NCBI GenBank assembly: GCA_963772625.1
Contig: CAVYXT010000017.1
Location: 5,079 to 69,078, forward strand
Length of the DNA stretch: 64,000 nt
Direction: 5' to 3'
From: an uncultured Actinomycetota bacterium
GTDB taxonomy: Bacteria > Actinomycetota > Actinomycetes > Actinomycetales > Microbacteriaceae
Program-made: the position numbers and the translations under genes
Notes under the pieces: generated by a model
The model's database searches: none
What the model was told of the DNA's origin: nothing
What the model saw: only the letters and a program-made list of their open reading frames with translations
Shown: positions 1 to 64,000 of the stretch, one piece after another
Position numbering within the stretch: the stretch's first letter is position 1
Layout: each line of letters begins with the position of its first letter

Positions 1-270
1 ATTGGCCGAGGCGATCGTCGGATCGACCTCTATCTCGCCGGCGAAGTCCCAGGCGCCGTACATCCCGAGGTGCACGCGCAACCAGAGGTCGTCGTCGAAC
101 TCGAGGAACATCTGCTTGCCGACGGCTCGGACAGCCGTCGCCGTGCGCCCGCTGAGGACGTTCGCGCCTTCGACGAAGCGCCCCTGAGGGCTGGATGCCG
201 CGACCACGCGTCCGACATAGTTACGGTCGAACTGGCGGGCGATCCGGTGGACCGAATGCCCTTCGGGCAT
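1..270 (-). CDS. Fpg/Nei family DNA glycosylase, N-terminal part (runs off the window start)
   Basis: Manual translation from ATG at 270 gives MPEGHSVHRIARQF...VGKQMFLEF...LRVHLGMYG, with the catalytic N-terminal PEG motif and HLGM motif. The start overlaps the rpiB stop. Confidence 0.9.
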   Translation of the reverse strand, partial: MPEGHSVHRIARQFDRNYVGRVVAASSPQGRFVEGANVLSGRTATAVRAVGKQMFLEFDDDLWLRVHLGMYGAWDFAGEIEVDPTIASAN

Positions 271-815
271 CAGCCGGCTTCGGGGTCGAACGAGCTGTCG
301 TCGTCGTCGAGGACGTCGGGCCGACCTGGGGCCGCACGCGGGTCGGGCTCGAGCGCGCCGTCCGCTTCGAACGCGGCGATCTGCGCGATCCTGCGAGCGT
401 GGCGCTCCTCGCCGGAGAACGGTGTCGCGATGAACCGGTCGATGAACGACGCCGCCTCCTCGAACGTGTGCTGGCGCGCGCCGATCGCGATCACGTTGGC
501 GTCGTTGTGTTCACGCGCGAGCTCCGCGGTCGCGATGCTCCACACCAGCGCCGCACGCACGCCGCGCACCTTGTTCGCCGAGATCTGCTCGCCGTTGCCC
601 GAGCCGCCGAACACCACCCCGAGCGTCTCGATGCCGGCATCCTGGTCGGCGACGACGGCCTGCGCCGCACGGATGCAGAAGGCCGGGTAGTCATCGAGTG
701 GCTCGTAGTCCAGCGGGCCGTGGTCGACGACATCGTGCCCCGCGCCCGCCAGGTGGTGCTGCAGCTGGGTGGAGAACTCGAGGCCGGCGTGATCGGTCGC
801 GATGTGGATGCGCAT
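270..815 (-). CDS. rpiB: Ribose-5-phosphate isomerase B
   Basis: MRIHIATDHAG...DDYP...GGSGNGEQISANKV...AREHNDANV. A TAGGAT -10 lies 7 nt before the ATG (leaderless). Confidence 0.93.
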   Translation of the reverse strand: MRIHIATDHAGLEFSTQLQHHLAGAGHDVVDHGPLDYEPLDDYPAFCIRAAQAVVADQDAGIETLGVVFGGSGNGEQISANKVRGVRAALVWSIATAELAREHNDANVIAIGARQHTFEEAASFIDRFIATPFSGEERHARRIAQIAAFEADGALEPDPRAAPGRPDVLDDDDSSFDPEAG

Positions 816-937
816 GGCTCCAATCCTAGGGAGCCGCCGTCGGCGTCGGGTTGCGCTGTCATAGGCTGAGGAGGTTGCCAGCGTCGGCCATCCGCCCGGC
901 CTCGCGACATCCGACCCCCTACACATCGGGAGCACCA

Positions 938-3482
938 GTGCCTGGAGAGAATCTCACCCGCATCGAGGCGCAGGAGCGCCGTGCGATCGTCGACACCCAC
1001 GCGTACGAAGTGGCGCTCGACCTGACCCGCGGACCCGAGGTCTTCGGTTCGCGCACGGTCGTGCGGTTCTCGGCGACATCCGGCGCCGACACGTTCATCG
1101 ACCTGATCGCCGCGGAGGTGCACTCGGTCACGCTCAACGATCGCGAAGTGCCGGTGTCGTCCTTCGCGGACTCCCGTATCGCTCTGACGAACCTCCAGGC
1201 GGAGAACGAGTTGATCGTCGATGCCGATTGCCTCTACACGAACACCGGGGAGGGCCTGCACCGCTTCGTCGACCCTGTCGACGACGAGGTCTACCTCTAC
1301 TCGCAGTTCGAGGTTCCGGATTCACGCCGCGTGTACGCGGTGTTCGAGCAGCCGGACCTCAAGGCGACGTTCCAGTTCACGGTCACCGCGCCCGAACCCT
1401 GGAAGGTGATCTCGAACTCTCCGACACCGGAGCCGAAGAAGCACGGCGACGGCCGGGCGACCTGGCGCTTCGAGCCGACCCCGCCGATCTCGTCGTACAT
1501 CACGGCGATCATCGCCGGTCCGTACGAGGAGACCTTCTCGGAGCTGACGAGCGCCTCCGGGCGGGTCATCCCGCTCGGGGTCTACGGCCGCAAGAGTCTC
1601 TGGCAGCACCTCGATGCGGACTACATCTTCGACAAGACGCGTCAGGGCTTCGCGTACTACGAGGAGAAGTTCGACTACCCCTACCCGTTCGCGAAGTACG
1701 ACCAGCTGTTCGTCCCCGAGTTCAACGCCGGCGCCATGGAGAATGCCGGCGCCGTGACGTTCACGGAGTCGTACGTCTTCCGCAGCAAGGTCACCGACGC
1801 CGTCAAGGAGCGTCGCGTGGTGACGATCCTGCACGAGCTGGCCCACATGTGGTTCGGCGACCTGGTCACGATGAAGTGGTGGAACGACCTGTGGCTGAAC
1901 GAGTCGTTCGCCGAGTGGGCCTCCACGATCGCGACGGCCGAGGCGACCGAGTGGACCGAGGCGTGGACCACCTTCAACGCGATGGAGAAGACCTGGGCGT
2001 ACCGCCAGGACCAGCTCCCCTCGACGCACCCCGTCGTCGCCGAGATCAACGATCTCGAGGACGTGCAGGTCAACTTCGACGGCATCACCTACGCCAAGGG
2101 CGGCTCGGTGCTCAAGCAGCTCGCCGCCTGGGTGGGGATCGACGCGTTCTTCGGTGGAGTCGCCGAATACTTCAAGAAGAACGAGTGGGGCAACACCGAG
2201 CTGCCCGATCTGCTGTCCGAACTCGAGAAGACGAGCGGACGCGAGCTGAGCACCTGGTCGAAGAAGTGGCTGGAGACCGCCGGCGTCAACACCCTCTCCC
2301 CCGTGCTCAACGAGGACGGCGCGGGCACGATCACGCGCTTCGCGATCACTGCAGACGGCACCGGCGGACTATCCGACGATTCGTCCGCACCGCCTGGGTG
2401 TCGGCTTCTACCAGGTCACCGGCGGTGCTCTCGAGCGCGTGCACCACGTCGAGCTGGACGTCGACGGCGACCTGACGGAGGTCCCCGAATTGAAGGGACT
2501 GAAGCGTCCCGACCTGGTCCTGCTCAACGACGAGGACCTCGCGTACGCGAAGATCCGGCTCGACGACCGTTCACTCAAGACGGCGATCGAGTTCCTCGGC
2601 CGCATCGCCGACCCGCTCGCGCGTTCCCTCGTGTGGGGTGCCGCGTGGGATCAGACGCGGGATGCCGAGTCCTCCCCCAGCGACTACATCGACCTCGTGC
2701 TGCGCAACATCGGGCGGGAGACCGAGTCCACCACAGTGCGCACGACCCTCGCGCAGCTGCAGCTCGCGGCGAACTCCTACGTCGCACCGGAGAAGCGCGA
2801 TGCCACACGGGCGAAGGTCGCCGACGGTCTGTGGGCTCTCGCACAGGCTGCCGAAGCCGGCAGTGACAGCCAGCTGCAGTTCGTGACTGCGTTCGCCACC
2901 GCGGCCTCGACGCCCGCCCACTGGGAAAAGGTGAAGTCGTTGCGCGACGGCCGGACGAGCCTCGAGGGCCTCGTGGTCGACACCGATCTGTCATGGCAGC
3001 TGCTCATCTCGCTGGCAGCCGGAGGCGTCGCCGACGCTGCGGCCATCGACGAGGCGCTCGCGGCCGACAACACGGCGAAGGGCGGCGAGTTCGCGGCACA
3101 GGCGAAGGCATCGATCCCCTCCGCTTCGGCGAAGCGCGCAGCGTGGAACTCCATCATCGAGAACGACGATCAGCCGAACACCATCGTCCGTTCCACGGCG
3201 CTCGGGTTCCAGCATCCCGCGACCGTCGCCCAGCTGGGCGAGTTCGTGGAGCGGTACTTCGATATGCTCCTGCCGATCTGGGATTCGCGCTCGTACCAGA
3301 TCGCGCAGTACATCATCGTGGGCTTCTACCCCGCGCCCCTGGCGAGCCTCGAGCTGCGCAACGCGACTCGCGCGTGGCTCGCCGCGAATCAGGACGCCGC
3401 GCCTGCGCTGCGCCGACTCGTGGACGAGAACCTCGCCGGCGTCGAGCGTGCCCTCGCGGTGCAGGAGCGCGACGCGCGGTAG
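938..3482 (+). pseudogene. pepN: Aminopeptidase N (M1 family), split by a +1 frameshift near 2351 (true lesion or sequencing indel)
   Basis: GAMEN and HELAH...NE motifs in ORF 851..2866. The C-terminal ERAP1-like part is in ORF 2439..3482. Span is 2545 nt = 848 codons + 1. Confidence 0.9.
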
Positions 3483-3492
3483 CGCGACTCCT

Positions 3493-3531
3493 GGATGCCC
3501 CGGCCTGCCGCCTCCGGTGGCCGGGGCATCC
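3493..3531. terminator. 13-bp GC-rich hairpin downstream of pepN; each arm carries the GGATGCC motif
   Basis: GGATGCCCCGGCC-N13-GGCCGGGGCATCC, 10 nt after the pepN stop; no U-tract. Confidence 0.6.
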
Positions 3532-3580
3532 GCACGTCCGCACAGATTCCACGGAGGGGCGCCGAACTAGGATCGGAACG

Positions 3581-4654
3581 ATGAACAGCGTCCTCCTCGA
3601 AACCGCCGTCGCGCCTGCTCCGTCGCTCTGGGAGCAGATCCTCGCAGCCGCCGTCGACATCGGGTGGCTCATTCTGGGCGTCTTCGGAATCATCATCGGC
3701 GCGCTCCTGCTCAGCTGGGTGCTCAAGCTGGTGATCCGGCGCGTCGTCGGTCGTATCGTCAACGGCGCGAAGAACAAGGCCAACGTCGACGACACGCAGG
3801 CGCTGGATCGCTCGCCGCTCGCTGCGGTGCGGCTCGTTCAGCGGACGCGGACGCTCGGGTCGATCCTGCAGAACATCGTGAACGTGACGATCGTGGTCGT
3901 GGCGCTGATGCTCACCGTCAATCTGCTCGCGCCCAACGCGCTGGGCTCCCTCACGCTGCTCACGGCGGCGGTCGGCGCCGGGCTGGGCTTCGGCGCCCAG
4001 AACATCGTCAAGGACGTGCTCAACGGGATCTTCATCGTCGCCGAGGATCAGGTCGGCATCGGCGATGTCGTCGACCTCGGGCTGGCGACCGGAATCGTCG
4101 AATACGTCAGTGTCCGCGTCACGAACGTCCGCGATGTGAACGGCACGCTGTGGTACGTGCGCAACGGCGAGATCCTGCGCATCGGCAACATGTCGATGGG
4201 CTGGTCGCGCGTGATCGTCGATCTCGCCCTCCCGATCGGAACCGACATCGGAGAGGTGGAGAACACGATGATGGAGACGATGAAGGATCTCGCGAAGGAT
4301 CCGAAGTGGCGCACCCGCATCATCGACAAGCCCGAGGTGTGGGGCTTGGAGTCGGTGTCGGGCGATGGCCTGGTGATCCGGCTCGTGATGAAGACGCGCG
4401 CGAACGCGAAGGACGATGTGGCTCGCGAGCTGCGGATGCGCGTGCTCAACGCCGTGGACGAGATGGGACTGACGCTGCCGCAGCTCAACTCGATCACCCT
4501 GAGCGGCCTGGAGGGCGCGCAGCGCGTGCGGGGCGCGAATCCGCCCAAGACGAAGCCGACGACGGTGACTCAGCCTCCTCCGCCCGAACGACCCGTCTGG
4601 CGACCGAAGCGAACACCGAAGCAGCCGCCCGAGACACCGCAGGGGTCAGCGTGA
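3581..4654 (+). CDS. Small-conductance mechanosensitive channel (MscS family)
   Basis: [31 protein letters not shown]...[11 protein letters not shown] signature. TAGGAT lies 7 nt before the ATG. Confidence 0.9.
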
Positions 4655-5110
4655 GCATCAGCTTCTACGACGAAGTCGGTGGTCACGAAACCTTCGTGCG
4701 CCTGGTCGACGCGTTCTACCGCGGCGTCGCCGACGATCCGGTACTGCGGCCGATGTATCCCGAGGAGGACCTCGGCCCCGCGCGAGAGCGCCTGACGCTC
4801 TTCCTCGAGCAGTACTGGGGCGGCCCTACGACATACAGCCGCGAGCGCGGCCACCCCCGCCTGCGGATGCGGCACGCGCCCTTCCACGTCAATCCCGACG
4901 GCGCGCGACCGCTGGCTCACCCACATGCGGGAGGCCGTCGACGAGCTCGGGCTCTCGCCCCTGCATGAGGCGACCCTGTGGGACTACCTGCAGCGCGCCG
5001 CGATGGCGATGGTGAACACCTTCGAGCCCACCGGCATCGGACCCTCCGCCGACGGACGCACCGGCACGTCGCTCCCCCTGGCGCCGCCGCCACCCAGCAC
5101 TCCGCTCTGA
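4651..5110 (+). pseudogene. Group II truncated hemoglobin (GlbO-like), split by a +1 frameshift near 4900
   Basis: SFYDEVGG...[20 protein letters not shown]...EQYWGGP...GHPRLRMRH, continuing in another frame as [13 protein letters not shown]. Span is 460 nt = 153 codons + 1. Confidence 0.85.
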
Positions 5111-5142
5111 GCCACTGACCGCCCGCCGACGAAGGAGTCACC

Positions 5143-6813: not shown

Positions 6814-7496
6814 GTCTCGTCGTCGGCTGCCGCGCGCGTCTCGCGGACGGCGGTCATCCCGATCCGGGCCGGCCCGCGGAGGATGACGTGCCCGCGGGCG
6901 AGAGTGAGGCGGGTCCACGATCCCGCCGTCCGCACCATCGCGTCCTCCTCGCCGACGATGAAGCCCAGCGTGAACGCGGCGAAGGCGACACCGAGCGGCA
7001 GCCCGCCGAGCGCGTCGTCGGGCACGCCCCACACAGCAGCGCGCACGGCACGAACGGCATCCTCCCCGGGATTCTGCGGAATCGACTCCGCGACGGCTGC
7101 GATGCCCCACTGCGCGCGCGCAGCGAGCACAGACGCCGGCACGACACCCGCCTGCGCCCAGCCGGTCCGCGGAGGCGACACGCCGGTCCAGGAGGGCGAC
7201 AGTCCCACGTCGGGCAGTTGCAGCTGGGCGGCATCATCGGCGACGGTCGACAGCTCTGCGGCTTCGATCGCGATGTCGCACTCCAGCTCGGGATCCACCG
7301 GCAGGACCCGCATCGCCAGCACGGTGGGTGTCGAATCGAACAGGCCGCGCGGTGCGAACGGGGCTGAGGTCATCGTGAGCGTGCCCAGTGCAGCACGCAG
7401 TCGGACGGCACCGTCCCCGACCCGCGCCGTGCGACCGGCGAACGTCAGAGCGTCCGTGGCGGCGGCGGCATCCGGGAAGATCAGGCGCTGCGACAT
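6810..7496 (-). CDS. Conserved hypothetical protein
   Basis: 228-aa ORF (MSQRLIFPDAAAA...) filling the gap between genes. TAGTTT -10 lies 7 nt before the ATG. Confidence 0.7.
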   Translation of the reverse strand: MSQRLIFPDAAAATDALTFAGRTARVGDGAVRLRAALGTLTMTSAPFAPRGLFDSTPTVLAMRVLPVDPELECDIAIEAAELSTVADDAAQLQLPDVGLSPSWTGVSPPRTGWAQAGVVPASVLAARAQWGIAAVAESIPQNPGEDAVRAVRAAVWGVPDDALGGLPLGVAFAAFTLGFIVGEEDAMVRTAGSWTRLTLARGHVILRGPARIGMTAVRETRAAADDET

Positions 7497-7573
7497 CCGC
7501 CCTAAACTACCAACCATCGGCGTGCCGCCGGCCCACCGCCCAGACCGGAGACCCTGTTGATCGAGACCTCGTC

Positions 7574-8497: not shown

Positions 8498-8501
8498 CCT
8501 G

Positions 8502-9003: not shown

Positions 9004-9011
<8 letters not shown>
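8502..9011 (-). CDS. Acyl-CoA thioesterase (4HBT/YbgC hot-dog family)
   Basis: RWGDLDALGHVNNTS motif. The GTG start overlaps the ettA stop. Confidence 0.88.
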
Positions 9012-10686
<1,675 letters not shown>

Positions 10687-29314: not shown

Positions 29315-31403
29315 ATGGTTTCGTCCGACTCCCTCGCCGCGATCGTCGCGCGCGCGGGGCTGCTCAGTTCCGACCTCGACGACCTCGGGGTCACGTTGGG
29401 GCCGGAGGGCGGAACGCTGCGCGTCTGGTCGGGCTCGCGCCGGCGGGGTAGAGCTCGTGGTCTTCGACGACAGCGACCTCGACTGGATCACCGACACCAT
29501 CCCCCTTCAGCCGGTCGGCGGGGATGTGTGGAGCATCACCACGCCGCTCCTGCGCGCCGGCACCCGCTACTCCATCCGCGTAGACGGACCGCACGGGACC
29601 GGCAACACCTTCAACAGCGGCACCCTGCTGGTCGAGCCGTACTCCAAGGGCCTGGTCAGCGGGGGGTTCGAGGACTGGCGCTCCGTGGTCGTCGACGGAG
29701 GATTCGACTGGGGCGGGGTTTCCAAGCCCGACGTGCCGCTGGATCGCACGGTCATCTACGAAGGCCATGTCAAAGGAATGTCCAAGCGGCATCCGCTCGT
29801 GCCTCCTGCGCTGCACGGAACCTACGCGGGTCTCGCGCACCCCGCCATGATCGAGCATTTCCTCCGGCTCGGCGTCACCAGCATCGAGCTCCTTCCGGTC
29901 CACGCGTTCGCGACCGAGCCGCGCCTGCTCCAGCACGGGCTCACGAACTACTGGGGCTACAACACCCTCAACTTCTTCACCCCGCACGGCGCCTACGCGA
30001 CCGAGGCCAACCGCCGGCACGGCCCCGAGGCGATCCTGCGCGAGTTCAAGGGAATGGTGAAGCTGCTCCACGCGGCCGGCCTCGAGGTGATCCTCGACGT
30101 CGTCTACAACCACACTGCGGAGGAGGCCCTGGGCGGTCCGCGCACGAGCCTGCGCGGCATCGACAACCGCTCGTACTACCGCCAGCACGACAACGGCGAG
30201 TACATCGACGTGACCGGCTGCGGCAACTCGGTCAACACGACGACGGATGCCGCGGCGCGCCTGGTCCTCGATTCTCTCCGGTACTGGGCGAACGACGTGC
30301 AGATCGACGGCTTCCGCTTCGACCTCGCCGCGACGCTCGGACGGGATGCCGCGCACCGGTTCACGCCCGACCACCCGCTGCTGCGCGCGATCATCGACGA
30401 CCCAGCGCTCGCGGGCGTCAAGAAGATCGCCGAGCCATGGGATGTGGGTATGGGCGGCTGGCAGACCGGCAACTTCGGCGACGGCTGGCTCGAGTGGAAC
30501 GACCGCTACCGCGATCGCGTCCGCAACTTCTGGCTGAGCGACGTCGACTACGCGCGCCGCGCATCGACGGCACCGGTCGGCATCGGCGGTTTCGCGACCC
30601 GTCTCTCGGGCTCCTCGAACACGTTCGACGTCGAGCGGGGACCGCTGGCGAGCGTCAACTTCGTCACCGCACACGACGGGTTCACGCTGCGCGATCTGGT
30701 CTCCTACGACGTCAAGCACAATGTCGGCAACGGTGAGCAGAACCGCGACGGCGCCGACACCAACCGCTCGTTCAACCACGGCGCCGAGGGTCCCACCGCG
30801 GACGAGGGGATCCTGGCCACTCGGCGCAAGGCGATGCGCAACCTGCTCGGCACCCTTCTGCTGTCAGCGGGCGTCCCGATGCTCACCGCCGGCGACGAGT
30901 TCGCCCGCACGCAGCGCGGCAACAACAACGCCTACTGCCACGACTCCCCCCTCACCTGGATGCCCTGGCAGCACGCACCGTGGCAGGAGGATCTGTTCGC
31001 GCACGTGCAGCGCCTGATCCAGCTGCGTCGTGAGAACCCCGCACTGCGTCCGATCCGGTTCGCCAAGCTCGACCAGCGCACCCCCTCGGCCTCGGTCATG
31101 CAGTGGTACGACCAGAACGGCGAGACCATGCTGATCGATCAGTGGACCGACCCGGCGAACCGCACGATGCAGTACGTGGCAGCATCCACACCCGAGCGCG
31201 AGGAGTTCAATCGGATCCTCCTCATGGTGCACGGCAACGAGCAGCCGGTCGACGTCACGCTCCCGGCGATCGAAGGGGTCTCGACGTTCGTGTCGCTGTG
31301 GTCGAGCGCAGACGAGTCGCCCGATCTCGCCGCTGTGCAATTCCGCCCGGGAGACGTCGTCCCGCTCGTCGGAACCTCGATGCGACTGTTCCGCGCACGG
31401 TAG
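29315..31403 (+). pseudogene. glgX: Glycogen debranching enzyme GlgX, +1 frameshift near 29438
   Basis: GH13 motifs NYWGYNT, DVVYNHT, DGFRFDLA, IAEPWD and FVTAHDGF. The N-terminal 41 codons are in another frame. TACTGT lies 7 nt before ATG 29315. Span is 2089 nt = 696 codons + 1. Confidence 0.9.
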
Positions 31404-33550: not shown

Positions 33551-35745
33551 CGACCACGACTGACAACCTGCTGGACGCCGTCGCCGCGGGATCCCACCAC
33601 GACCCGCATTCTGTTCTCGGCATGCATCTCGGAACCGACGCAGAGGGGGCTCCCGAGTGGACGATCCGCGCTCGGCGCCCGCTGGCACAGAGCGTCACCG
33701 CGGTGTTCGCGGACGGCACGCGCGTTCCCCTCGAGCACGTTCGCGCGGGGATCTGGGAGGGCCAGAAGGCCGGCGACGGCGGCAAGTACCAGCTGATCAC
33801 GACGTACGACGACGCCCCGGACTACACGGCCGAGGACCCCTACCGCTTCGGACCCGGCATCGGCGAGCTCGACCTCCACCTGATTCGCGAGGGTCGCCAC
33901 GAAGAGCTCTGGCGAGTCCTGGGCGCGCATGTCCGCCAACTGGATGGAACGACCGGCACGTCCTTCACCGTGTGGGCCCCGAACGCGCAGGCGGTGCGCG
34001 TGGTGGGCGATTTCAACGAGTGGGACGGACCCGCCCACGCGATGCGGTCGATGGGCTCCAGCGGCGTCTGGGAGCTGTTCGTCCCCGCGCTCGGAGTGGG
34101 CACGGCGTACAAGTTCCAGCTGCTCTCGCGCCGCGGGGACTGGGTGCTCAAGGCCGACCCGATGGCACGGTTCGCCGAGGTGCCGCCGGCGACGGCATCC
34201 GTCGTCACGGACTCGTCCTACACGTGGTCGGATGCCGCTTGGTTGAAGCGCCGGGCGACCACGCAGCCGGTCTCCCAGCCGATGTCGATCTACGAGGTGC
34301 ATTTCGGGTCGTGGCGTCCGGGGCTCTCGTACCGCGACGGCGCTGATCAGCTGATCGACTACGTGACCGCGCAGGGCTTCACGCACATCGAGTTCCTCCC
34401 CCTCGCCGAGCACCCGTTCGGCGGTTCATGGGGCTACCAGGTGACGGGCTACTTCTCCCCCACCAGCCGCTTCGGGACGCCCGATGATCTGCGGTATCTG
34501 ATCGATCGGCTGCATCAGGCGGGCATCGGCGTGATCATGGACTGGGTTCCGGGTCACTTCCCGAAGGATTCCTTCGCGCTCGCGCGCTTCGACGGGGAGG
34601 CGCTGTACGAGCACCCCGATCCGCGTCGCGGCGAGCACCGCGAATGGGGCACGTACATCTTCGACTACGGCCGCCCGGAGGTGCGCAACTTCCTCGTGGC
34701 GAACGCCCTGTACTGGTTCGAGGAGTTCCACGTCGATGGCCTCCGTGTCGACGCGGTCGCCTCGATGCTCTACCTCGACTACTCCCGCGAGGCGGGCCAG
34801 TGGGCGCCGAACGTGCACGGCGGGCGCGAGAACCTCGAGGCGATCCACTTCCTGCAGGAGGTGACGGCGACCTCCTACAAGCGGTATCCCGGCATCTCGA
34901 TGATCGCCGAGGAGTCCACCAGCTTCCCCGGGGTCACGGCCCCCACGAGCGGGGCGGGGCTCGGGTTCGGGTTCAAGTGGAACATGGGCTGGATGAACGA
35001 CTCGCTGCAGTACATCTCCCGCGATCCGATGTACCGCTCCCACCACGAGGGCGAGCTTTCCTTCTCCTTCGTGTACGCCTTCAGCGAGAACTACGTGCTT
35101 CCGATCAGCCATGACGAGGTGGTCCACGGCAAGGGCAGCCTGTTCTCCCGGATGCCGGGAGACCACTGGCAGAAGCTCGCCAACATGCGCGCCTTCCTGG
35201 CCTACATGTGGGGTCACCCGGGCAAGCAGCTGCTGTTCATGGGCCAGGAGTTCGGTCAGCTCTCCGAGTGGGCCGAGGGGCGCGGACTGGATTGGTGGAT
35301 CCTCGACCAGCCCTCTCACGCCGAGCTGCACGGTTTCGTCGCCACGCTCAACCGTGTGTACCGGGACCACTCCGCATTGTGGGCGCGCGACAGCGACGGT
35401 GCGGCGTTCTCGCGGCTGGGAGCACCGTCGTGGAATCCGAACGTCATCGCCTTCTCGCGTCGGGACTGGCACGGCAACACCATCGTCGTCGTGTGCAACT
35501 TCTCCGGCGTGCCGGTGCACGGGTTCGCGCTCGATCTGCCCGAGTCGGGCGTCTGGCACGAGATCCTCAACTCGGACGCGCAGGCCTACGGCGGCTCGGG
35601 GGTCGGCAACCTCGGTGTCGTTCAGGCCGGCGAGTCAGGCCGCGCCGTGATGGTCCTGCCGCCGCTGGGCGTGCTGTGGCTGCGACATGACGCGCAGGCG
35701 CACCTGCCTGCGCAGAAGCGGTCGGATCGCCTGCTGCTGCCCTGA
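33547..35745 (+). CDS. glgB: 1,4-alpha-glucan branching enzyme
   Basis: IYEVHFGSW, GSWGYQVT, DWVPGHFP, GLRVDAVASMLY, AEEST and SHDEVVHGKGS motifs. Confidence 0.97.
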   Translation: MTTTTDNLLDAVAAGSHHDPHSVLGMHLGTDAEGAPEWTIRARRPLAQSVTAVFADGTRVPLEHVRAGIWEGQKAGDGGKYQLITTYDDAPDYTAEDPYRFGPGIGELDLHLIREGRHEELWRVLGAHVRQLDGTTGTSFTVWAPNAQAVRVVGDFNEWDGPAHAMRSMGSSGVWELFVPALGVGTAYKFQLLSRRGDWVLKADPMARFAEVPPATASVVTDSSYTWSDAAWLKRRATTQPVSQPMSIYEVHFGSWRPGLSYRDGADQLIDYVTAQGFTHIEFLPLAEHPFGGSWGYQVTGYFSPTSRFGTPDDLRYLIDRLHQAGIGVIMDWVPGHFPKDSFALARFDGEALYEHPDPRRGEHREWGTYIFDYGRPEVRNFLVANALYWFEEFHVDGLRVDAVASMLYLDYSREAGQWAPNVHGGRENLEAIHFLQEVTATSYKRYPGISMIAEESTSFPGVTAPTSGAGLGFGFKWNMGWMNDSLQYISRDPMYRSHHEGELSFSFVYAFSENYVLPISHDEVVHGKGSLFSRMPGDHWQKLANMRAFLAYMWGHPGKQLLFMGQEFGQLSEWAEGRGLDWWILDQPSHAELHGFVATLNRVYRDHSALWARDSDGAAFSRLGAPSWNPNVIAFSRRDWHGNTIVVVCNFSGVPVHGFALDLPESGVWHEILNSDAQAYGGSGVGNLGVVQAGESGRAVMVLPPLGVLWLRHDAQAHLPAQKRSDRLLLP

Positions 35746-44649: not shown

Positions 44650-45477
44650 CTACGCGCCGACCTTGAAGCGGGCGAACCCGGTGAGGGTCAGACCCGCGTC
44701 CTTGGCGACCTGGGCGACGGACAGCTTATTGTCCTTCGCGTAGTCCTGGTCCAGGAGCGAGACCTGCTTGAAGAAGGCGTTCACGCGGCCCTCGACGATC
44801 TTCGGCAGAGCGGCCTCGGGTTTGCCCTCCTGGCGCGAGATCTCGGTGACGATCTCACGCTCCTTGTCCACGTCCGCCGCGGGGACCTCGTCGCGCGACA
44901 GGTAGGACGGGTTGGCGAACGAGATGTGCTGCGCGAGGCTGCGTGCAGTCTCCGCGTCGTCACCCGAGTAGGCCAGGACCACGCCGACCTGCGGGGGCAG
45001 GTCCTTGCTGGTCTTGTGCAGGTAGACCTCGAAATGATCGCCGGTCAGCGTGCGAACACGACGCAGTTCGACCTTCTCGCCGATGATTGCGGCCTCGTCG
45101 TCGATCAGCTGCGCGACCGTCGACGAACCGGCGGGCGCGGCCAGCGCGGTCTCCACCGAGTCCGCGGCGACAGCGGCCGCGGCATCCGCGACCTTGTCGG
45201 CCAGCGCGATGAAGCGGTCGTTCTTCGCGACGAAGTCGGTCTCGCAGGCCAGCTCGATCAGCGTGACCTTGCCGCTCTGCTCGCGGGCGGTGACCAGACC
45301 CTCGCTCGTGGAACGATCGGCACGCTTGGCGTTGCCCTTCGCACCCTTGAGGCGCAGGATCTCGACGGCCTTCTCGACGTCGCCGTCGGCCTCTTCGAGG
45401 GCCTTCTTGGTGTCGACCATGCCGGTTCCGAGCTGGTCACGCAGCGCCTTGATGTCGGCGATCGTGAAGTTTGCCAT
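44650..45477 (-). CDS. tsf: Translation elongation factor Ts
   Basis: IKALRDQLGTGMVDTKKAL, ELACETDFVAKN and KIVEGR motifs. Confidence 0.97.
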   Translation of the reverse strand: MANFTIADIKALRDQLGTGMVDTKKALEEADGDVEKAVEILRLKGAKGNAKRADRSTSEGLVTAREQSGKVTLIELACETDFVAKNDRFIALADKVADAAAAVAADSVETALAAPAGSSTVAQLIDDEAAIIGEKVELRRVRTLTGDHFEVYLHKTSKDLPPQVGVVLAYSGDDAETARSLAQHISFANPSYLSRDEVPAADVDKEREIVTEISRQEGKPEAALPKIVEGRVNAFFKQVSLLDQDYAKDNKLSVAQVAKDAGLTLTGFARFKVGA

Positions 45478-53733: not shown

Positions 53734-53747
53734 GCGAAGACGGAATG

Positions 53748-54746: not shown

Positions 54747-54854
54747 GGCTCGATGCTACGCCGGTCCCCCGCGGATGGGGTGGTGTCGACACGGAGCACG
54801 AAGCATCCTCCCAGCCACGGCATCCGACAGAATGGTTCCGACGGAAGGAACCCG

Positions 54855-56001: not shown

Positions 56002-56027
56002 GGACGAAGCGTAGCGGTCCGCAGAAC

Positions 56028-56055
56028 CTCACAAGTGGACGGCATCCCCCGTGAG
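56028..56055. promoter_or_regulatory. NnaR-type operator CTCACA-N16-CGTGAG upstream of narK
   Basis: Inverted repeat with the same spacing as the site at 61277; -10 TAGCTT at 56110. Confidence 0.7.
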
Positions 56056-56160
56056 ATCGGTGAGACGCAGAGTTCACACGGGGAACGACCCCGCGAAATG
56101 CGGCCTCCGTAGCTTCGGACTCACAGGCTCCACCTCGCTGCGAATCTCCGGGAGATCACG

Positions 56161-57585: not shown

Positions 57586-57590
57586 CACCC

Positions 57591-59714: not shown

Positions 59715-61273
59715 CCCTGACCCCCGGCCCGCTCCGCGTACTCGTCGTCGGTTACGGCCCCGTCGGTGCGCGCTTCGCCGAGAATCTTCTTCCCGCCGTG
59801 CAGAACGGGCGGATCGCGCTGACCGTCGTCGGTGCGGAGCAGAGTGACGCGTACAACCGCGTGCTCGTCGCCGAATACGCCGTGGGTGCGGTGCAGCGCG
59901 AGTCGCTCACGATCGCCGACCGCGACGGCGTCGAGGCGGCGGGCGCGCGGATCCTCACCGGAGTCGCCGTGAGCGAGATCGATCGCGAAGGGCGGCTCGC
60001 CGTCCTGAGCGACGGTGAACGCATCGGATACGACCGGATCGTGCTCGCCACCGGCTCTCGAGCCAACGTCCCCACGCTGGACGGCGTACCCCGCACACCG
60101 GGGCACCGCCGCGCTGCGGGACGGGACGACGTCCTTCCGCGCGGCGTGACCACCCTGCGCGATGTCGAGGACGCGGACCGCATCCGGCACGCCGTGGCCG
60201 AAGGCCAGCGGATCGTGGTGCTCGGCGCAGGCGTCCTCGGTCTCGAATTCGCCCTCGCCGCGGCTCACGCCGGCGCCTCCGTCGCCGTGGTCCACCACGG
60301 GCCCCACCCGATGCCGCGCAATCTCGACCGCGGAGCGGGTTCCGTGCTGCGCCGGGCGGTCCACCGGACCGGAGTGTCGATCTTCGCCCACAGCCGCGCC
60401 GAGACGGTGCTGTTCCATACCGACGACGACGGACGTCCCAGGTTCGACCGCCTGCTGACCGCCGACGGCAAGGACATCGCCGGAGACCTCCTGGTGCTCT
60501 CGTGCGGAGTCTCGCCGCGCGATGAGCTCGCCGAGAGATCCGGGCTTCACGCGTCGTTCGGCATCGTCGTCGACCCGAGCCTGCGCAGCTTCATCGACCC
60601 GGCCGTCTTCGCCCTCGGCGACTGCGCCCACATCGCCGATCCCGCCGTGGTCGAGGCAGGCGGCCGCCTGACCGGAGCGCCGAGCGGACTCATCGGGCCC
60701 GGCTGGCGTCAGGCCGACTGGCTCGCCGCCCGCTTCATCGACGGCCTCGAGGACGTCGAGGCCGCCCTGCCCGCCGAGCGCGAGCCGTTGGTCATGCTCA
60801 AGGCCGAGCACGTCGACGTGGTGGCCGCGGGCGACGTCTCCGCCGACCCCTGGGACGACGACGTGCAGGGCAGGCACGTCTCGCAATGGGCGGATCCCGA
60901 GCACGGCCGGTACGCGAAGATGGTCTCCTCCGACGGCATCCTCACCGGATTCGTCTGCGTCGGGATGCCGCGAACCGCCGCCGAGCTGACCCTCCTCTAC
61001 GAGCGCGGCGACGAGCTGCCCGCCGACCGCTCGCTCCTGCTGCGCTTCGACGGTCCGGACTTCGACCCGACCGCCGCCGGGGCCGCGCTCTCGCCCAACG
61101 CGACCGTGTGCTGGTGCAACGGTGTCAGCGTGGGGCAGATCGACGATTCGATCACCGCCGGCAACACCACGGTCGACTGCGTCGGGCGCGACACCCGCGC
61201 GGGCACGGGCTGCGGCGGGTGTCGCACCCGCATCGCCGACATGCTTGCGCGCCATGCGGTGGAGCCCGTGTGA
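59711..61273 (+). CDS. FAD/NAD(P)H oxidoreductase with C-terminal BFD-like [2Fe-2S] domain (NasB-like electron transfer subunit)
   Basis: VVGYGPVG, YNRVL, LATGS, VVLGAGVLGLE and C-terminal VCWCNGV...AGTGCGGC motifs. Confidence 0.88.
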   Translation: MTLTPGPLRVLVVGYGPVGARFAENLLPAVQNGRIALTVVGAEQSDAYNRVLVAEYAVGAVQRESLTIADRDGVEAAGARILTGVAVSEIDREGRLAVLSDGERIGYDRIVLATGSRANVPTLDGVPRTPGHRRAAGRDDVLPRGVTTLRDVEDADRIRHAVAEGQRIVVLGAGVLGLEFALAAAHAGASVAVVHHGPHPMPRNLDRGAGSVLRRAVHRTGVSIFAHSRAETVLFHTDDDGRPRFDRLLTADGKDIAGDLLVLSCGVSPRDELAERSGLHASFGIVVDPSLRSFIDPAVFALGDCAHIADPAVVEAGGRLTGAPSGLIGPGWRQADWLAARFIDGLEDVEAALPAEREPLVMLKAEHVDVVAAGDVSADPWDDDVQGRHVSQWADPEHGRYAKMVSSDGILTGFVCVGMPRTAAELTLLYERGDELPADRSLLLRFDGPDFDPTAAGAALSPNATVCWCNGVSVGQIDDSITAGNTTVDCVGRDTRAGTGCGGCRTRIADMLARHAVEPV

Positions 61274-61276
61274 GAT

Positions 61277-61304
61277 CTCACAACCGCGGCGACCGCGCGG
61301 TGAG
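61277..61304. promoter_or_regulatory. NnaR-type operator CTCACA-N16-GGTGAG upstream of nirB
   Basis: Same motif and spacing as at narK; -10 TAGCGT at 61360. Confidence 0.7.
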
Positions 61305-61488
61305 AGAAACGTTGCGTCGCGGTAATCACTGCAGCACGGCCGCGGAAACCTCTGCCGCATAGCGTCGGGAGCAGTTCCCGCACCACGGCTCCGCCCCAAC
61401 GCACCACCCGCATCACCTGCGCACACCGCCCGCGACGACAGGAGATCCCGTGCCTCGCACTTCGAAACGAACGGATGCCGCGGCATCC

Positions 61489-61542
61489 GTCGCCACGGCG
61501 AAACAGAACGCACACGCGCGCGCAACACGCGCCGGATATGTT
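61489..61542 (+). promoter_or_regulatory. GlnR-like box array GTCGC-N6-GAAAC-N6-CACAC-N6-GCAAC plus -10 TATGTT
   Basis: 11-nt periodic xxxAC repeats resembling gTnAc-N6-GaAAc; -10 lies 6 nt before ATG 61549. Confidence 0.6.
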
Positions 61543-61548
61543 GCCGAC

Positions 61549-64000
61549 ATGCTCGAGCAGCAGGGGCACGATCGCCACGTCGTGGTCGTGGGCGCCGGAA
61601 TGGTCGCCCACCGCTTTGTGGAGAGCCTGCGCAGCCGCGACGCGGACGGCCTCTGGCGCGTGACGGTGATCGGCGAGGAGGACCGCCACCCCTACGACCG
61701 GGTCGGCCTGACGTCGTACTTCGCGGGAGCCAGCGCGGACGATCTGACGCTCCAGCGCTCCATCCTCGACGAGGACGATCGCGTGCGGTTCGTGCGGGGC
61801 GACGCGGTCGCCCGCATCGACCGGGAGGCGCGCCGCGTGACGACCGACAGCGGCCTCAGCGTCGGCTACGACACGCTGGTGCTCGCCACCGGCTCGTATG
61901 CGGCCCGGCTGACCGTCGACGGATTCGACCTGAACGGATGCTTCGTCTACCGCACCCTCGACGACGTCGAGGGTCTTCGCGCGTTCGTCGAGCGGCGCTC
62001 CGCGGAACTCGGCCGCCGGCTGCGGGGAACCGTCATCGGCGGCGGGCTGCTCGGGCTCGAGGCAGCCGGTGCGATGCAGGGACTGGACGTGGACTGCACG
62101 GTCGTGCAGTCATCGGACCGCCTGATGTCGGCTCAGCTCGACGCGCGCGGCGCCGACTCGCTGCGCCGGCTCATCGAGTCGCGGGGCATCGCAGTGCGCA
62201 CGGGAAGCGTGACCACCCGACTCGACCCGGATATCCGCGGCAACGTCCGTGGCCTCGAATTCCGCGAGGGCGACTACGCCGACACGGATGTCGTCGTCTT
62301 CACCGTCGGCGTGCGCCCCCGCGACCAGCTCGCCCGGGCGGCCGAGCTGAAGACCGAGCCCCGCGGTGGCGTCATCATCGATGCCGAGTGCACCACCTCA
62401 GACCCCCGTGTCCTCGCCATCGGCGAGGTCGCGAGCTTCGACGGCCGCTGCGTCGGACTCGTCGCTCCGGGTTACGCGATGGCCGAGGTAGCTGCGACCC
62501 GCCTGCTCGGGTCAGCCGCGACCTTCCCGGGATACGACGACTCCACCAAGCTGAAGCTGAACGGTGTCGACGTCGCCAGCTTCGGCGATGCCTTCGCCCA
62601 GACTCCGGGTGCCCTCGACGTCGTGTACGCCGATCCGGTGGCCGGCGTCTACAAGAAGCTCGTCCTGTCGGATGACGCGCAGACGCTGCTCGGCGGCATC
62701 CTCGTCGGCGATGCCAGTGCATACGGGATGCTGCGGCCGCTCGTCGGCGGACCGCTCGGCGCGGATCCCGCCGCGTACCTCATGCCGGAGGGCGCTGGGG
62801 ATGCGCTGGCGAACGCCGAGCTGCCCGACCAGGCGCTGGTGTGCTCCTGCAACAGCGTGACGGCGGGGACGATCCGCTGCGCCGTCACAGACGAGGGCTG
62901 CACGGACGTCGCCGGTGTGAAGGCCTGCACGCGGGCCGGCGCCGCGTGCGGTTCGTGCCTGCCGCTCGTCAAGACGCTCGTCGGCAAAGAGCTCGCCCGC
63001 AGCGGCGCCACCCTCAGCACCGCACTCTGCGAGCACTTCTCGCACTCCCGCGCGCAGCTGTTCGACGCCGTGCGGGTGTCGGGGCTGCGCACGTTCAGCG
63101 CGATCATCGACCGCTTCGGCACCGGCCGCGGCTGCGACATCTGCAAGCCGGTGCTCGCCAGCATCCTGTCCTCCCTCGGCCACGGCCACGTGCTCGACGG
63201 CGAGAACGCGACCCTGCAGGACACCAACGACCACGTCATGGCGAACATCCAGAAGGACGGCAGCTACTCGGTCGTCCCGCGGATCGCGGGGGGCGAAATC
63301 ACCCCGGAGGGTCTGCTGGCCATCGGGCAGGTCGCGAAGGACTACGGCCTGTACACGAAGATCACCGGCGGCCAGCGCATCGACATGTTCGGAGCCCGCC
63401 TGGAGCAGCTGCCCGAGATCTGGAAGCGCCTCGTCGACGCCGGCTTCGAATCCGGGCACGCCTACGGCAAGTCCCTGCGCACCGTGAAGTCGTGCGTCGG
63501 TTCGACCTGGTGCCGCTACGGCGTGCAGGACTCGGTCGGCATGGCGGTTCAGCTCGAGCTGCGCTATCGCGGTCTGCGGTCGCCGCACAAGATCAAGCTC
63601 GGCGTCTCGGGCTGCGCGCGCGAGTGCGCGGAGGCCCGGGGAAAGGACGTCGGCGTGATCGCCACCGAGGCTGGCTGGAACATGTACGTCGGCGGGAACG
63701 GCGGCTTCACACCTCGTCATGCGGTGCTGTTCGCCGAAGGGCTCGATGACGCTGCGCTCCTGCGGGCGATCGACCGCTTCCTGATGTACTACATCCGCAC
63801 GGCCGACCGCCTGCAGCGCACCGCACCCTGGTTCGAGGAGATGGAAGGCGGAGTCGACGCCCTGCGTGCTGTCATCTTCGACGACAGCCTCGGCATCGCC
63901 GAAGACCTCGATGCGGCCATGGCGCAGCACGTGGACGCGTACGAGGACGAGTGGAAGGCGGCCCTGGAGGACCCGGAGAAGCTCCGCCGGTTCGCGTCGT
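61549..64000 (+). CDS. nirB: Nitrite reductase [NAD(P)H] large subunit (runs off the window end)
   Basis: VVVVGAGMVAHRFVE, YDRVGL, IGGGLLGLEAA, BFD motifs CSCN...CGSC, QKDGSYSVVPR, KSCVGSTWCR and GVSGCARECAE; frame is open to 64000. Confidence 0.95.
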   Translation, partial: MLEQQGHDRHVVVVGAGMVAHRFVESLRSRDADGLWRVTVIGEEDRHPYDRVGLTSYFAGASADDLTLQRSILDEDDRVRFVRGDAVARIDREARRVTTDSGLSVGYDTLVLATGSYAARLTVDGFDLNGCFVYRTLDDVEGLRAFVERRSAELGRRLRGTVIGGGLLGLEAAGAMQGLDVDCTVVQSSDRLMSAQLDARGADSLRRLIESRGIAVRTGSVTTRLDPDIRGNVRGLEFREGDYADTDVVVFTVGVRPRDQLARAAELKTEPRGGVIIDAECTTSDPRVLAIGEVASFDGRCVGLVAPGYAMAEVAATRLLGSAATFPGYDDSTKLKLNGVDVASFGDAFAQTPGALDVVYADPVAGVYKKLVLSDDAQTLLGGILVGDASAYGMLRPLVGGPLGADPAAYLMPEGAGDALANAELPDQALVCSCNSVTAGTIRCAVTDEGCTDVAGVKACTRAGAACGSCLPLVKTLVGKELARSGATLSTALCEHFSHSRAQLFDAVRVSGLRTFSAIIDRFGTGRGCDICKPVLASILSSLGHGHVLDGENATLQDTNDHVMANIQKDGSYSVVPRIAGGEITPEGLLAIGQVAKDYGLYTKITGGQRIDMFGARLEQLPEIWKRLVDAGFESGHAYGKSLRTVKSCVGSTWCRYGVQDSVGMAVQLELRYRGLRSPHKIKLGVSGCARECAEARGKDVGVIATEAGWNMYVGGNGGFTPRHAVLFAEGLDDAALLRAIDRFLMYYIRTADRLQRTAPWFEEMEGGVDALRAVIFDDSLGIAEDLDAAMAQHVDAYEDEWKAALEDPEKLRRFAS

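What the first reader, a model, noticed from the sequence alone, without database searches (positions are those of the whole stretch)
193..62701. Strongly over-represented dispersed motif GGATGCC(G) / (C)GGCATCC, like a DNA-uptake sequence or HIP element
Seen: my manual read-through found about 83 copies of GGATGCC or GGCATCC (about 48 plus, 35 minus), about 62 of them the 8-mer GGATGCCG/CGGCATCC. A base-composition model at 70% GC predicts roughly 15 and 5, i.e. about 5-fold and 12-fold excess. The count may be off by a few, and this model ignores codon structure. Copies occur in several reading frames and often use GAT or GCA synonyms that appear uncommon here: GCG-GAT-GCC in tsf (45181), ACG-GAT-GCC in glgX (30245), ACG-GCA-TCC in glgB (34194). 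There is no strong strand polarity, unlike KOPS/Chi. The consensus CGGATGCCG is an interrupted palindrome (CGG-N3-CCG). Established: Neisseria and Pasteurellaceae uptake sequences and cyanobacterial HIP1 show this pattern. Inference: a DUS, a methylation/repair-driven motif (contains GGATG) or a nucleoid-protein site.
Basis: partly seen in the sequence, partly recalled or inferred. Interest (0 to 1): 0.8.

Follow-up and report, generated by a model that had tools for sequence, protein, structure and literature searches.

The report
Genome-wide 8-base self tag GGATGCCG
This Microbacterium genome carries about 4,000 copies of the 8-base word GGATGCCG, written into genes against normal codon habits and kept in place through evolution, which most resembles the "uptake sequences" a few bacteria use to recognise their own DNA and has not been described in this bacterial group.

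Summary
The window holds 83 copies of GGATGCC/GGCATCC (48 plus, 35 minus), 62 of them GGATGCCG. The whole 3.96 Mb Microbacterium genome holds 4,168 copies of the 8-mer, about one per kb and 6-13 times expectation.

The excess survives shuffles that keep amino acids and codon usage, where the word ranks first of all 65,536 8-mers. It occurs in every reading frame, on both strands and in intergenic DNA. All eight positions prefer the motif letter at synonymous sites. Orientation is balanced in every 100-kb window, so it is not Chi- or KOPS-like.

Half of the aligned copies sit at the same position in a species only 82% identical in DNA. Synonymous sites inside the word are conserved 4-5 times better than matched controls.

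The word is enriched across most Microbacteriaceae, at 2-35 times a control word. Three sampled genera carry other top words instead: GGAGGCGC, GCAGGAKC and GCGGATC. Two low-ratio Microbacterium species carry none. Three Microbacterium phages neither carry nor avoid it.

No C5-methylase or Vsr exists in this genome. A conserved orphan N6/N4 methylase is not sufficient for the enrichment.

The best reading is a DUS/USS-like self-recognition word kept by a sequence-specific reader during DNA exchange.

The parts
193..62701 (.). 83 dispersed copies of GGATGCC/GGCATCC (48 +, 35 -), 62 of them the full 8-mer GGATGCCG. They lie in coding DNA of all frames and in intergenic DNA, at about 1.3 per kb.
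   Evidence: the genome-wide density is the same
61471..61490 (.). Perfect 20-bp palindrome ACGGATGCCGCGGCATCCGT, made of two abutting inverted 8-mers, in the intergenic region between two + strand genes.
   Evidence: It is one of 36 genomic GGATGCC-N2-GGCATCC pairs. I expect about 1 by chance from copy number (my arithmetic).
3493..3531 (.). Terminator-like hairpin 11 nt after the stop codon of the pepN-like gene. The arms GGATGCCCCGGCC and GGCCGGGGCATCC are 13 bp and perfect, with a 13-nt loop.
   Evidence: positions
45180..45188 (-). CGGATGCCG inside tsf, read as ..G-GAT-GCC-G.. It uses the minor Asp codon GAT.
30244..30252 (+). CGGATGCCG inside the glgX-like gene, in the same xxG-GAT-GCC-G frame.
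34193..34237 (.). Two copies 36 nt apart in opposite orientation inside the glgB-like gene. The one at 34193-34201 is on the - strand and the one at 34229-34237 is on the + strand.

Best explanation
GGATGCCG is a lineage-specific genomic self tag. It is an 8-bp duplex word that an as yet unidentified sequence-specific DNA-binding protein reads as a unit, in either orientation. A restoring force keeps it at about one copy per kb of native chromosome. The most likely force is that of DNA uptake sequences (DUS/USS). During natural transformation, fragments or alleles that carry the word are preferentially bound, taken up or recombined. Alleles with the word therefore replace alleles without it (molecular drive, possibly helped by selection). 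Copies then accumulate wherever the protein code or an intergenic hairpin tolerates them.

Shown: the enrichment is real and acts on DNA as a whole word. It has no polarity, is conserved at synonymous sites, is specific to the family with dialects, and is missing from accessory islands and three phages.

For: 1. The word acts as a whole. At synonymous third positions, each of the 8 positions takes the motif letter far above codon-usage expectation when the other 7 match. Examples are position 4 T at 0.77 against 0.22, position 3 A at 0.70 against 0.13, and position 1 at 0.81 against 0.51. It is the top 8-mer under both codon-preserving nulls.
2. Coding does not explain it. All frames carry it, and sense and antisense counts are 1,595 and 1,780. 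Short intergenic DNA has 1.72 copies per kb against 1.28 in coding DNA.
3. There is no polarity. Plus/minus counts are binomial in all 32 windows of 100 kb (chi2 28.8, df 32).
4. The word is maintained. Against species G388 (82% nt identity, third-position identity 0.645), 121 of 241 aligned copies are at the same position. With amino acids conserved, xxG-GAT-GCC-G is identical in 67% of cases against 12% for matched controls. xCG-GCA-TCC is identical in 50% against 10%. Protein conservation at these sites is only average.
5. The distribution follows lineage. Across 200 Microbacteriaceae genomes from 95 genera, the ratio to a control word runs from 0.7 to 35 and is consistent within genera. 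Other families of the order show 1.5-4.
6. There are dialects. GGAGGCGC dominates in genus g52 and in one g71 species (about 0.9 per kb). GCAGGAKC dominates in g17 and GCGGATC in g67. All are balanced in orientation and share GGA[T/G].
7. Placement resembles DUS/USS. Convergent (3'/3') intergenic regions have 2.52 copies per kb and divergent ones 0.99. Inverted GGATGCC..GGCATCC pairs form hairpins after genes.
8. The word marks native DNA. Density falls about 4-fold in low-GC, poorly coding windows, although the composition expectation changes by less than 20% (my arithmetic). The longest motif-free stretch is a 14.5-kb accessory island. Three Microbacterium phages carry 5-8 copies against 3-5 expected.
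9. The machinery is plausible. A comEA-comEC-holA operon is present. Natural transformation has been shown in two Microbacteriaceae genera, Rhodoluna and Aurantimicrobium (PMC11577799).
Against: Natural transformation has not been shown for Microbacterium, and no motif-dependent uptake has been tested anywhere in the family. Rhodoluna, one of the two transformable genera, is a small, low-GC genome. The one Rhodoluna locus sampled here has no copy in 20 kb.

The word is only 8 bp with no flanking consensus. Its 6-13-fold excess is, from my own knowledge of the field, far below the excess of Neisseria DUS or Haemophilus USS.

The trait is patchy inside the genus. Two Microbacterium species have near-baseline counts and no replacement word.

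No receptor candidate was found. ComEC is universal. Type IV pilus ATPases do not track the motif.

From my own knowledge, the Gram-positive model systems take up DNA without sequence preference.

Every comparative result above is equally expected for any 'self tag' read by a chromosomal protein.
Confidence: 0.4

Rival explanations
1. The word is an epigenetic, HIP1-like tag. It contains the target of the conserved orphan N6/N4 DNA methyltransferase, and methylation-linked processes (repair, replication control or methylation-dependent transformation, as now reported for HIP1) keep it frequent.
For: An orphan PF01555 methyltransferase (G000:C14:42396-43433) is 70-81% identical across 187 of 201 Microbacteriaceae genomes. 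No nuclease is evident among its neighbouring genes. All 14 genomes that lack it have a ratio of 6.4 or less. Of the 72 genomes with a ratio of 8 or more, 71 have it. HIP1 is also conserved by selection, and a preprint reports that methylated HIP1 boosts natural transformation (10.1101/2024.09.10.611283).
Against: The enzyme is not sufficient. It is present in baseline genera (g17, g52, g48, g50) and in low-ratio Microbacterium G063. It is also present in families f7, f9 and f4, and G622 (f9) has no singular word. Its sequence stays about 78% identical between lineages whose words differ at 3 or more positions. G085 lacks it but still has a modest word. This genome has no C5-methylase and no Vsr. 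Transition neighbours are not depleted. The word is not a palindrome. The correlation has no phylogenetic correction.
Confidence: 0.15
2. The word is a non-polar Chi-like signal. A helicase-nuclease (AdnAB or RecBCD) recognises it, stops degrading and starts recombination. The word thereby marks own DNA and is selected in both orientations for repair of two-ended breaks.
For: The word is short, G-rich and over-represented in native DNA and varies between lineages, as Chi does between bacterial groups. It is absent from phages and islands. It is conserved in position. The HIP1 preprint also raises a Chi-like role for a hyper-abundant word.
Against: From my own knowledge, every characterised Chi is co-oriented with replication. 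Here orientation is exactly balanced everywhere. One copy per kb is dense for an 8-mer Chi. The excess of inverted pairs in hairpins and in 3' intergenic DNA has no counterpart in Chi biology. The trait is lost in some species of the genus, which is odd for a core repair signal.
Confidence: 0.15
3. The word is the binding site of an abundant chromosomal protein, such as a nucleoid-associated, condensin-loading or replication/segregation factor. It is selected for chromosome organisation.
For: The whole 8-bp word is recognised in either orientation. Thirty-six abutting inverted pairs could serve as dimer sites. Spread is genome-wide, positions are conserved, and the word is absent from phages.
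Against: Spacing is essentially exponential, with no sign of regular spacing or domains. Density varies 10-fold or more between sister species and falls to baseline in some. This fits a dispensable system better than a structural one. Much of the asymmetry of abutting pairs inside genes follows from codon phase (my reading of the frame counts and the pairs listed).
Confidence: 0.12
4. The excess is a by-product of codon usage, amino-acid composition or a context-dependent single-site mutation, for example deamination of GGACGCC to GGATGCC.
For: One frame of the reverse word, GGC-ATC-C, uses the two favoured codons and accounts for 1,200 7-mer copies. The commonest single difference between species is T/C at position 4.
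Against: The excess survives shuffles that keep amino acids, codon usage and codon plus next base. It is strongest where rare codons are needed. It is present in intergenic DNA. It involves all 8 positions. GGACGCC is not depleted overall. Two other families of the order, sampled at 62% and 73% GC, show only codon-periodic words.
Confidence: 0.02

Closest known systems
DNA uptake sequences: DUS of Neisseriaceae (ATGCCGTCTGAA family, with dialects) and USS of Pasteurellaceae
   Same: The word is short and non-palindromic, occurs about once per kb and is equally frequent in both orientations. It is written into genes in all frames. It is richer in intergenic DNA, especially at gene 3' ends and as inverted pairs in terminator-like hairpins. 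It is specific to a family, with genus-level dialects that share a core. It is depleted in foreign DNA and conserved in position between species.
   Different: The phylum differs (Actinomycetota, Gram-positive). The word is only 8 bp with no flanking consensus. The excess is about 10-fold, not the much larger excess I recall for DUS/USS. The trait is patchy within the genus. No receptor is known and no uptake bias has been demonstrated. Competence has been shown only in two other genera of the family.
HIP1 (GCGATCGC) of cyanobacteria
   Same: It is an 8-bp word at about one copy per gene, maintained at synonymous sites and varying between lineages. Conserved orphan methyltransferases occur in the same genomes, and a link to natural transformation has been suggested.
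   Different: HIP1 is a palindrome that contains the known sites of its orphan methylases. Here the word is asymmetric, the methylase's target is unknown, and the enzyme is found in genomes without any such word.
Chi sites and KOPS/SRS (polar chromosome words)
   Same: These are G-rich 5-8-mers, over-represented in the native chromosome and specific to a lineage.
   Different: Those words are strongly co-oriented with replication. This one shows no orientation bias at any scale tested.

Membership tests
DNA uptake sequences (DUS/USS) | Short asymmetric word, hyper-abundant at about 1 per kb, with both orientations equally frequent | tested here: met
   There are 4,168 copies in 3.96 Mb, 2,116 forward and 2,052 reverse. 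Orientation is binomial in all 100-kb windows.
DNA uptake sequences (DUS/USS) | The excess is independent of coding: all frames, intergenic DNA, and beyond codon usage | tested here: met
DNA uptake sequences (DUS/USS) | Family-specific, with dialects in related genera | tested here: met
   The word is enriched in most of 95 Microbacteriaceae genera. Other words dominate in g52, g17 and g67. Two of three other families sampled in depth show only codon-periodic words. The third (f7, G572) has a related word, CGATGCCG.
DNA uptake sequences (DUS/USS) | Over-representation at gene 3' ends and as inverted pairs in terminator-like hairpins | tested here: met
   Convergent intergenic regions have 2.52 copies per kb and divergent ones 0.99. 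There are 187 '+-' pairs against 89 '-+' pairs within 60 nt. Hairpins lie after genes.
DNA uptake sequences (DUS/USS) | Scarce in recently acquired DNA and mobile elements | tested here: met
   Density correlates with local GC (r = 0.70), and low-density windows are poorly coding. The longest motif-free stretch is a 14.5-kb accessory island. Three phages carry it at chance level. It is unknown whether the phages' host species carry the word.
DNA uptake sequences (DUS/USS) | The organism is naturally transformable and has the uptake machinery | tested here: inconclusive
   A comEA-comEC-holA operon and a Tad-type ATPase are present but are universal. Transformation has been shown in Rhodoluna and Aurantimicrobium, not in Microbacterium (PMC11577799).
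DNA uptake sequences (DUS/USS) | The word increases DNA uptake or transformation through a specific receptor | not testable with these tools
   This needs uptake or competition assays and identification of the receptor.
DNA uptake sequences (DUS/USS) | Word of 9-12 nt, often with flanking consensus, with a far larger excess than seen here (feature as I recall it, not checked in a paper here) | tested here: not met
   The core is 8 bp and the flanks carry 0.1 bit or less. The excess is 6-13-fold.
HIP1-type iterated palindromes | The word is a palindrome | tested here: not met
   GGATGCCG is not its own reverse complement. Only 49% of copies have the 5' C that would give CGG-N3-CCG.
HIP1-type iterated palindromes | Cognate orphan methyltransferase(s) whose sites lie inside the word and whose presence tracks its abundance | tested here: inconclusive
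   An orphan PF01555 enzyme looks necessary (71 of 72 high-ratio genomes have it). It is not sufficient, and it also occurs outside the family. Its specificity is unknown.
Very-short-patch (Dcm/Vsr) repair-driven words | A C5-methyltransferase plus Vsr endonuclease in the genome, and depletion of one-transition neighbours | tested here: not met
   G000, G388 and G100 give no PF00145 or PF03852 match. The neighbours GGATGTC and GGATGCT are 2.2x and 1.6x expectation, so they are not depleted.
Chi / KOPS polar words | Strong co-orientation with replication | tested here: not met
REP/MITE-type dispersed repeats | Copies share a longer element with conserved flanks, mostly intergenic | tested here: not met
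   No information lies outside the 8-mer. About 80% of copies are inside genes. Hairpin flanks differ between copies.

The most novel reading that the evidence does not exclude
Microbacteriaceae have a true DNA-uptake-sequence system, the first in a Gram-positive phylum. An unknown receptor binds GGATGCCG, or GGAGGCGC, GCAGGAKC or GCGGATC in other genera, and biases natural transformation towards DNA of the same lineage. The dialects would then act as barriers to gene flow between genera. The 2-35-fold range of enrichment would measure how much each species still exchanges DNA.
Probability: 0.3. Interest if true: 0.9.

Novelty: new variant of a known kind. Interest (0 to 1): 0.75.

Why it matters
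To my knowledge, sequence-specific self-recognition of DNA during transformation is established only in two proteobacterial families, and the purpose of HIP1 is still debated.

This is a third, independent case in high-GC Gram-positive bacteria. The word is easy to recognise, the dialects are clear, and closely related species differ by 10-fold or more in enrichment. Many cultured strains are available. Together these make the open questions directly testable: who reads such words, whether drive or selection maintains them, and whether they limit gene flow.

There is also a practical side. Adding the word to constructs might improve genetic manipulation of Microbacterium and its relatives. Motif density is also a simple marker of native against acquired DNA in these genomes.

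Tried and rejected
- Literature searches by sequence (GGATGCC, GGATGCCG) returned only primers. A search for 'Microbacterium' with 'DNA uptake sequence' returned nothing. A survey of abundant bacterial oligomers does not contain the word.
- The classical VSP mechanism was rejected.
- Polarity was rejected.
- Even spacing was rejected, because gaps are exponential.
- The orphan methylase as driver was followed through four searches and found necessary-looking but not sufficient.
- ComEC and pilus ATPases do not discriminate between motif-rich and motif-poor genomes.
- No prophage was evident in this genome's motif-poor regions, so public phages were used instead.
- A first conservation test on 20-kb loci of distant species was too small to read. 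It was replaced by 400 kb of the closest species.
- One fetch from genomes was partly wasted on non-existent contigs.
Full report
**Observation**

GGATGCC/GGCATCC occurs 83 times in the window (48 on the + strand, 35 on the -). Dinucleotide-preserving shuffles give 15.7 +/- 3.5, and none reaches more than 23. The 8-mer GGATGCCG occurs 62 times against 7.2. CGGATGCCG occurs 25 times against 3.4.

The window is C17:5079-69078 of a 3.96 Mb, 69% GC draft genome. That genome has the same density throughout. It holds 5,074 copies of the 7-mer against 928-1,426 expected under Markov orders 0-3. It holds 4,168 copies of the 8-mer against 320-738. GGATGC is the most deviant 6-mer even under a maximal-order Markov model (z = 27). 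Tsf comparisons place the genome in Microbacterium.

**Is it a coding artefact?**

I called 3,356 genes with a codon-usage model. They cover 80% of the genome.

In genes the word sits in three main settings (7-mer counts):
- xxG-GAT-GCC on the sense strand: 1,586 copies
- GGC-ATC-C on the antisense strand: 1,200 copies
- xxG-GCA-TCC on the antisense strand: 849 copies

Two of these settings need minor codons. Asp GAT is 22% of Asp codons overall but 69.5% in the context G|GAY|GCC. Ala GCA is 8.7% overall but 65% in G|GCN|TCC.

I ran two kinds of shuffle. The first keeps every protein sequence and each gene's codon usage. It gives 272 sense and 517 antisense copies of the 8-mer, against 1,595 and 1,780 observed. 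The second also keeps each codon together with the following base. It gives 267 and 655. In both nulls GGATGCCG ranks first of all 65,536 8-mers, and nearly every other top word is an overlapping fragment of it.

Short intergenic regions (20-150 nt) have 1.72 copies per kb, more than coding DNA at 1.28 per kb, although their GC is lower.

I then took all places where seven of the eight letters match and the eighth falls on a synonymous third position. The motif letter is chosen far above codon-usage expectation at every one of the eight positions. Examples are position 1 at 0.81 against 0.51, position 3 at 0.70 against 0.13, position 4 at 0.77 against 0.22 and position 7 at 0.85 against 0.40. 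This rules out a single-site context-dependent mutation. It shows that the 8-bp word is favoured as a unit, as expected for protein-DNA recognition.

**Anatomy**

An alignment of all copies shows an 8-bp core. Position 8 is G in 82% of copies. There is a weak C before the core (49%) and after it, and nothing further out. The 'CGG-N3-CCG interrupted palindrome' is therefore at most a weak feature.

One-mismatch neighbours are not depleted. The transition neighbours GGATGTC and GGATGCT are mildly enriched, as decayed copies would be.

Orientation is balanced. The genome has 2,116 forward and 2,052 reverse copies. The plus/minus split is binomial in all 32 windows of 100 kb (chi2 28.8, df 32) and is unrelated to GC skew.

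Gaps between copies are close to exponential, with a slightly heavy tail, so there is no regular spacing.

Inverted pairs in the order GGATGCC..GGCATCC are in excess: 187 within 60 nt against 89 for the opposite order. There are peaks at gaps of 2, 8 and 9 nt. Inside genes, I attribute much of this asymmetry to codon phase. The abutting pair reads D-A-A-A-S in the two commonest frames (my reading). Many intergenic pairs, however, sit at the apex of longer perfect hairpins a few bases after a stop codon.

The window has two examples. One is a hairpin with 13-bp arms, 11 nt after the pepN-like gene (3493-3531). The other is a perfect 20-bp palindrome at 61471-61490.

Among short intergenic regions, density depends on the flanking genes:

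| Intergenic class | Copies per kb |
|---|---|
| Convergent (3'/3') | 2.52 |
| Tandem | 1.83 |
| Divergent (5'/5') | 0.99 |

**Native against foreign DNA**

Density per 20 kb ranges from 9 to 43 copies and correlates with local GC (r = 0.70). The poorest windows also have few confident gene calls. By my arithmetic, the composition expectation changes by less than 20% over that GC range, so the 4-fold drop is real.

The longest motif-free stretch (14.5 kb, C4:683-697 kb) is an accessory island.

I checked three phages of Microbacterium hosts: temperate Min1 and lytic BAjuniper and Franklin22. They carry 5, 8 and 5 copies against 3-5 expected. They would carry about 40 at host density. The word is thus neither copied onto DNA that merely replicates in these cells nor avoided as a restriction target would be. 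One caveat applies: I could not verify that these particular host species are motif-rich.

**Evolutionary maintenance**

The closest species representative, G388, is 82% identical in DNA. I fetched 400 kb of it and aligned 240 orthologues codon by codon. Amino-acid identity is 87%, and third-position identity where the amino acid is the same is 0.645.

Of 241 aligned copies in this genome, 121 are at exactly the same position in G388. The table below covers copies whose overlapped amino acids are conserved. Controls are 8-mers in the same frame with the same third-position letters.

| Setting | Motif identical in G388 | Matched controls identical |
|---|---|---|
| xxG-GAT-GCC-G | 67% (39/58) | 12% (n = 476) |
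| xCG-GCA-TCC | 50% (15/30) | 10% (n = 343) |
| xxC-GGC-ATC-C | 83% | 45% |

At sites where both proteins would allow the word, G388 has it in 68% of cases when this genome has it. It has it in 24% of cases when this genome does not. Protein conservation at motif sites is only average (61-67% against 65-71%). A restoring force therefore acts on the word itself. Both selection and biased replacement fit this result.

**Phylogenetic distribution**

The survey tool compares the word with its reverse, GCCGTAGG. That control is itself somewhat rare, and other families of the order give ratios of about 1.5-4. Against this baseline:
- This genome scores 23.
- Eighteen further Microbacterium species score 3.7-32.
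- Two hundred Microbacteriaceae genomes from 95 genera score 0.7-35, with values consistent within genera.
- Named examples are Humibacter 20, Lacisediminihabitans 14, Parafrigoribacterium 11, M. bandirmense 14 and Microbacterium sp. Marseille-Q6965 3.5.

I sampled 200-260 kb from genera at baseline. Each has a different singular word:
- G070 (genus g52): GGAGGCGC, 255 copies against 43.5 expected (z = 32).
- G128 (g17): GCAGGATC, GCAGGAGC and CGCAGGA.
- G085 (g67): GCGGATC, 84 against 14.

All three are balanced in orientation. A family-wide count shows GGAGGCGC is high only in the three g52 genomes, in one of three g71 species, and modestly in g45. The words share a GGA[T/G] core (CGGATGCCG against CGGAGGCGC), so they look like dialects.

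Other samples gave different results:
- Two other families (G020, G025) and G622 show only codon-periodic words.
- G572, from family f7, has a related word, CGATGCCG (70 against 14).
- Two low-ratio Microbacterium species have no replacement word, so the trait is patchy inside the genus.

**Search for a driver**

The classical methylation/repair mechanism is excluded here. This genome, G388 and G100 have no C5-methyltransferase and no Vsr.

I found one DNA methyltransferase, an orphan N6/N4 enzyme (PF01555) among metabolic genes. It is 70-81% identical in 187 of 201 Microbacteriaceae genomes. All 14 genomes without it have low ratios, and 71 of 72 genomes with a ratio of 8 or more have it (Mann-Whitney p = 1e-4, with no phylogenetic correction).

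The same enzyme is also present in several places where the word is not enriched. These are baseline genera, low-ratio Microbacterium G063, and families f7, f9 and f4. G622 (f9) has no singular word. So it is not sufficient, and its link to the word is weak.

ComEC is present in every genome tested. This genome has a normal comEA-comEC-holA operon. Tad-type ATPases are universal. PilB/PilT-type ATPases are scattered without relation to the motif.

Natural transformation has been demonstrated in two Microbacteriaceae genera, Rhodoluna and Aurantimicrobium (PMC11577799). It has not been demonstrated in Microbacterium.

**Interpretation**

The following is shown. The word is a real, whole-word, DNA-level tag of the native chromosome. 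It is read in either orientation, maintained in place, and specific to a bacterial family with dialects.

The combination of features is that of DNA uptake sequences:
- no polarity
- about one copy per kb
- dialects
- a preference for 3' intergenic DNA and hairpins
- scarcity in islands and phages
- a continuous range of enrichment between species, as expected for a balance between drive and mutation

I therefore take a DUS/USS-like self-recognition word as the most likely explanation (confidence 0.4).

Several points count against it. The word is short and the excess modest. Competence is unproven in this genus. No receptor was found. The trait is patchy.

The rivals predict almost the same comparative patterns, and only experiments can separate them. 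They are an epigenetic HIP1-like tag tied to the orphan methylase, a non-polar Chi-like signal, and a site for an abundant chromosomal protein. A recent preprint reports that methylated HIP1 enhances natural transformation (10.1101/2024.09.10.611283). If so, these categories may overlap.

**Novelty**

I found no description of this word or of any uptake-type sequence in Actinomycetota. Earlier notes of this scan report similar tags in two other phyla. These are unchecked AI notes and I did not use them as evidence. I file the finding as a new variant of a known kind of feature (hyper-abundant genomic words), not as a demonstrated DUS.

Noticed in passing
G000 genome-wide; also G235, G063, G070 samples: AGGCGCT/AGCGCCT is a second, weaker over-represented word. 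It has 1,576 copies against 947 under a maximal-order Markov model and is the top 7-mer in several other Microbacteriaceae samples. AGCGCC is a Type III m4C site reported in a Microbacterium strain (PMC8259958).
   Followed up: no
G000:C14:42396-43433 (outside the window): An orphan N6/N4 DNA methyltransferase (PF01555) is 70-81% identical across Microbacteriaceae and three other families of the order, comparable to Tsf. No nuclease is evident among its neighbours, and its target is unknown.
   Followed up: partly
L185 (phage BAjuniper) and L186 (phage Franklin22): GCGATCGC, the cyanobacterial HIP1 word, is the most over-represented 8-mer in two lytic Microbacterium phages (20 copies against 3.8, and 32 against 5.0).
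   Followed up: no
G000 coding sequences: 8-mers containing CCTGG/CCAGG are 3-4 times rarer than an amino-acid and codon-usage shuffle predicts. The deficit disappears when codon plus next base is preserved, so it is a codon-boundary effect.
   Followed up: partly
L173-L180 (G572, family f7): The top words assemble to GACGATGCCGTCC (CGATGCCG has 70 copies against 14). This shares ATGCCG with the Microbacterium word. By coincidence it shares ATGCCGTC with the Neisseria AT-DUS.
   Followed up: no
window 61471-61490 and 3493-3531: A perfect 20-bp palindrome ACGGATGCCGCGGCATCCGT lies in an intergenic region. A hairpin with 13-bp arms built on the motif lies 11 nt after the stop of the pepN-like gene.
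   Followed up: partly
G000:C4:683066-697545: This is the longest motif-free stretch (14.5 kb, 66% GC). It is an accessory island with few confident genes. Going by the sequences alone, these seem to include a papain-like peptidase and a large protein of unknown function.
   Followed up: partly
G089 against G170 and G230 (genus g71): Within one genus, one species has the GGAGGCGC dialect at about 0.75 per kb and less GGATGCCG. Its congeners have only GGATGCCG.
   Followed up: no
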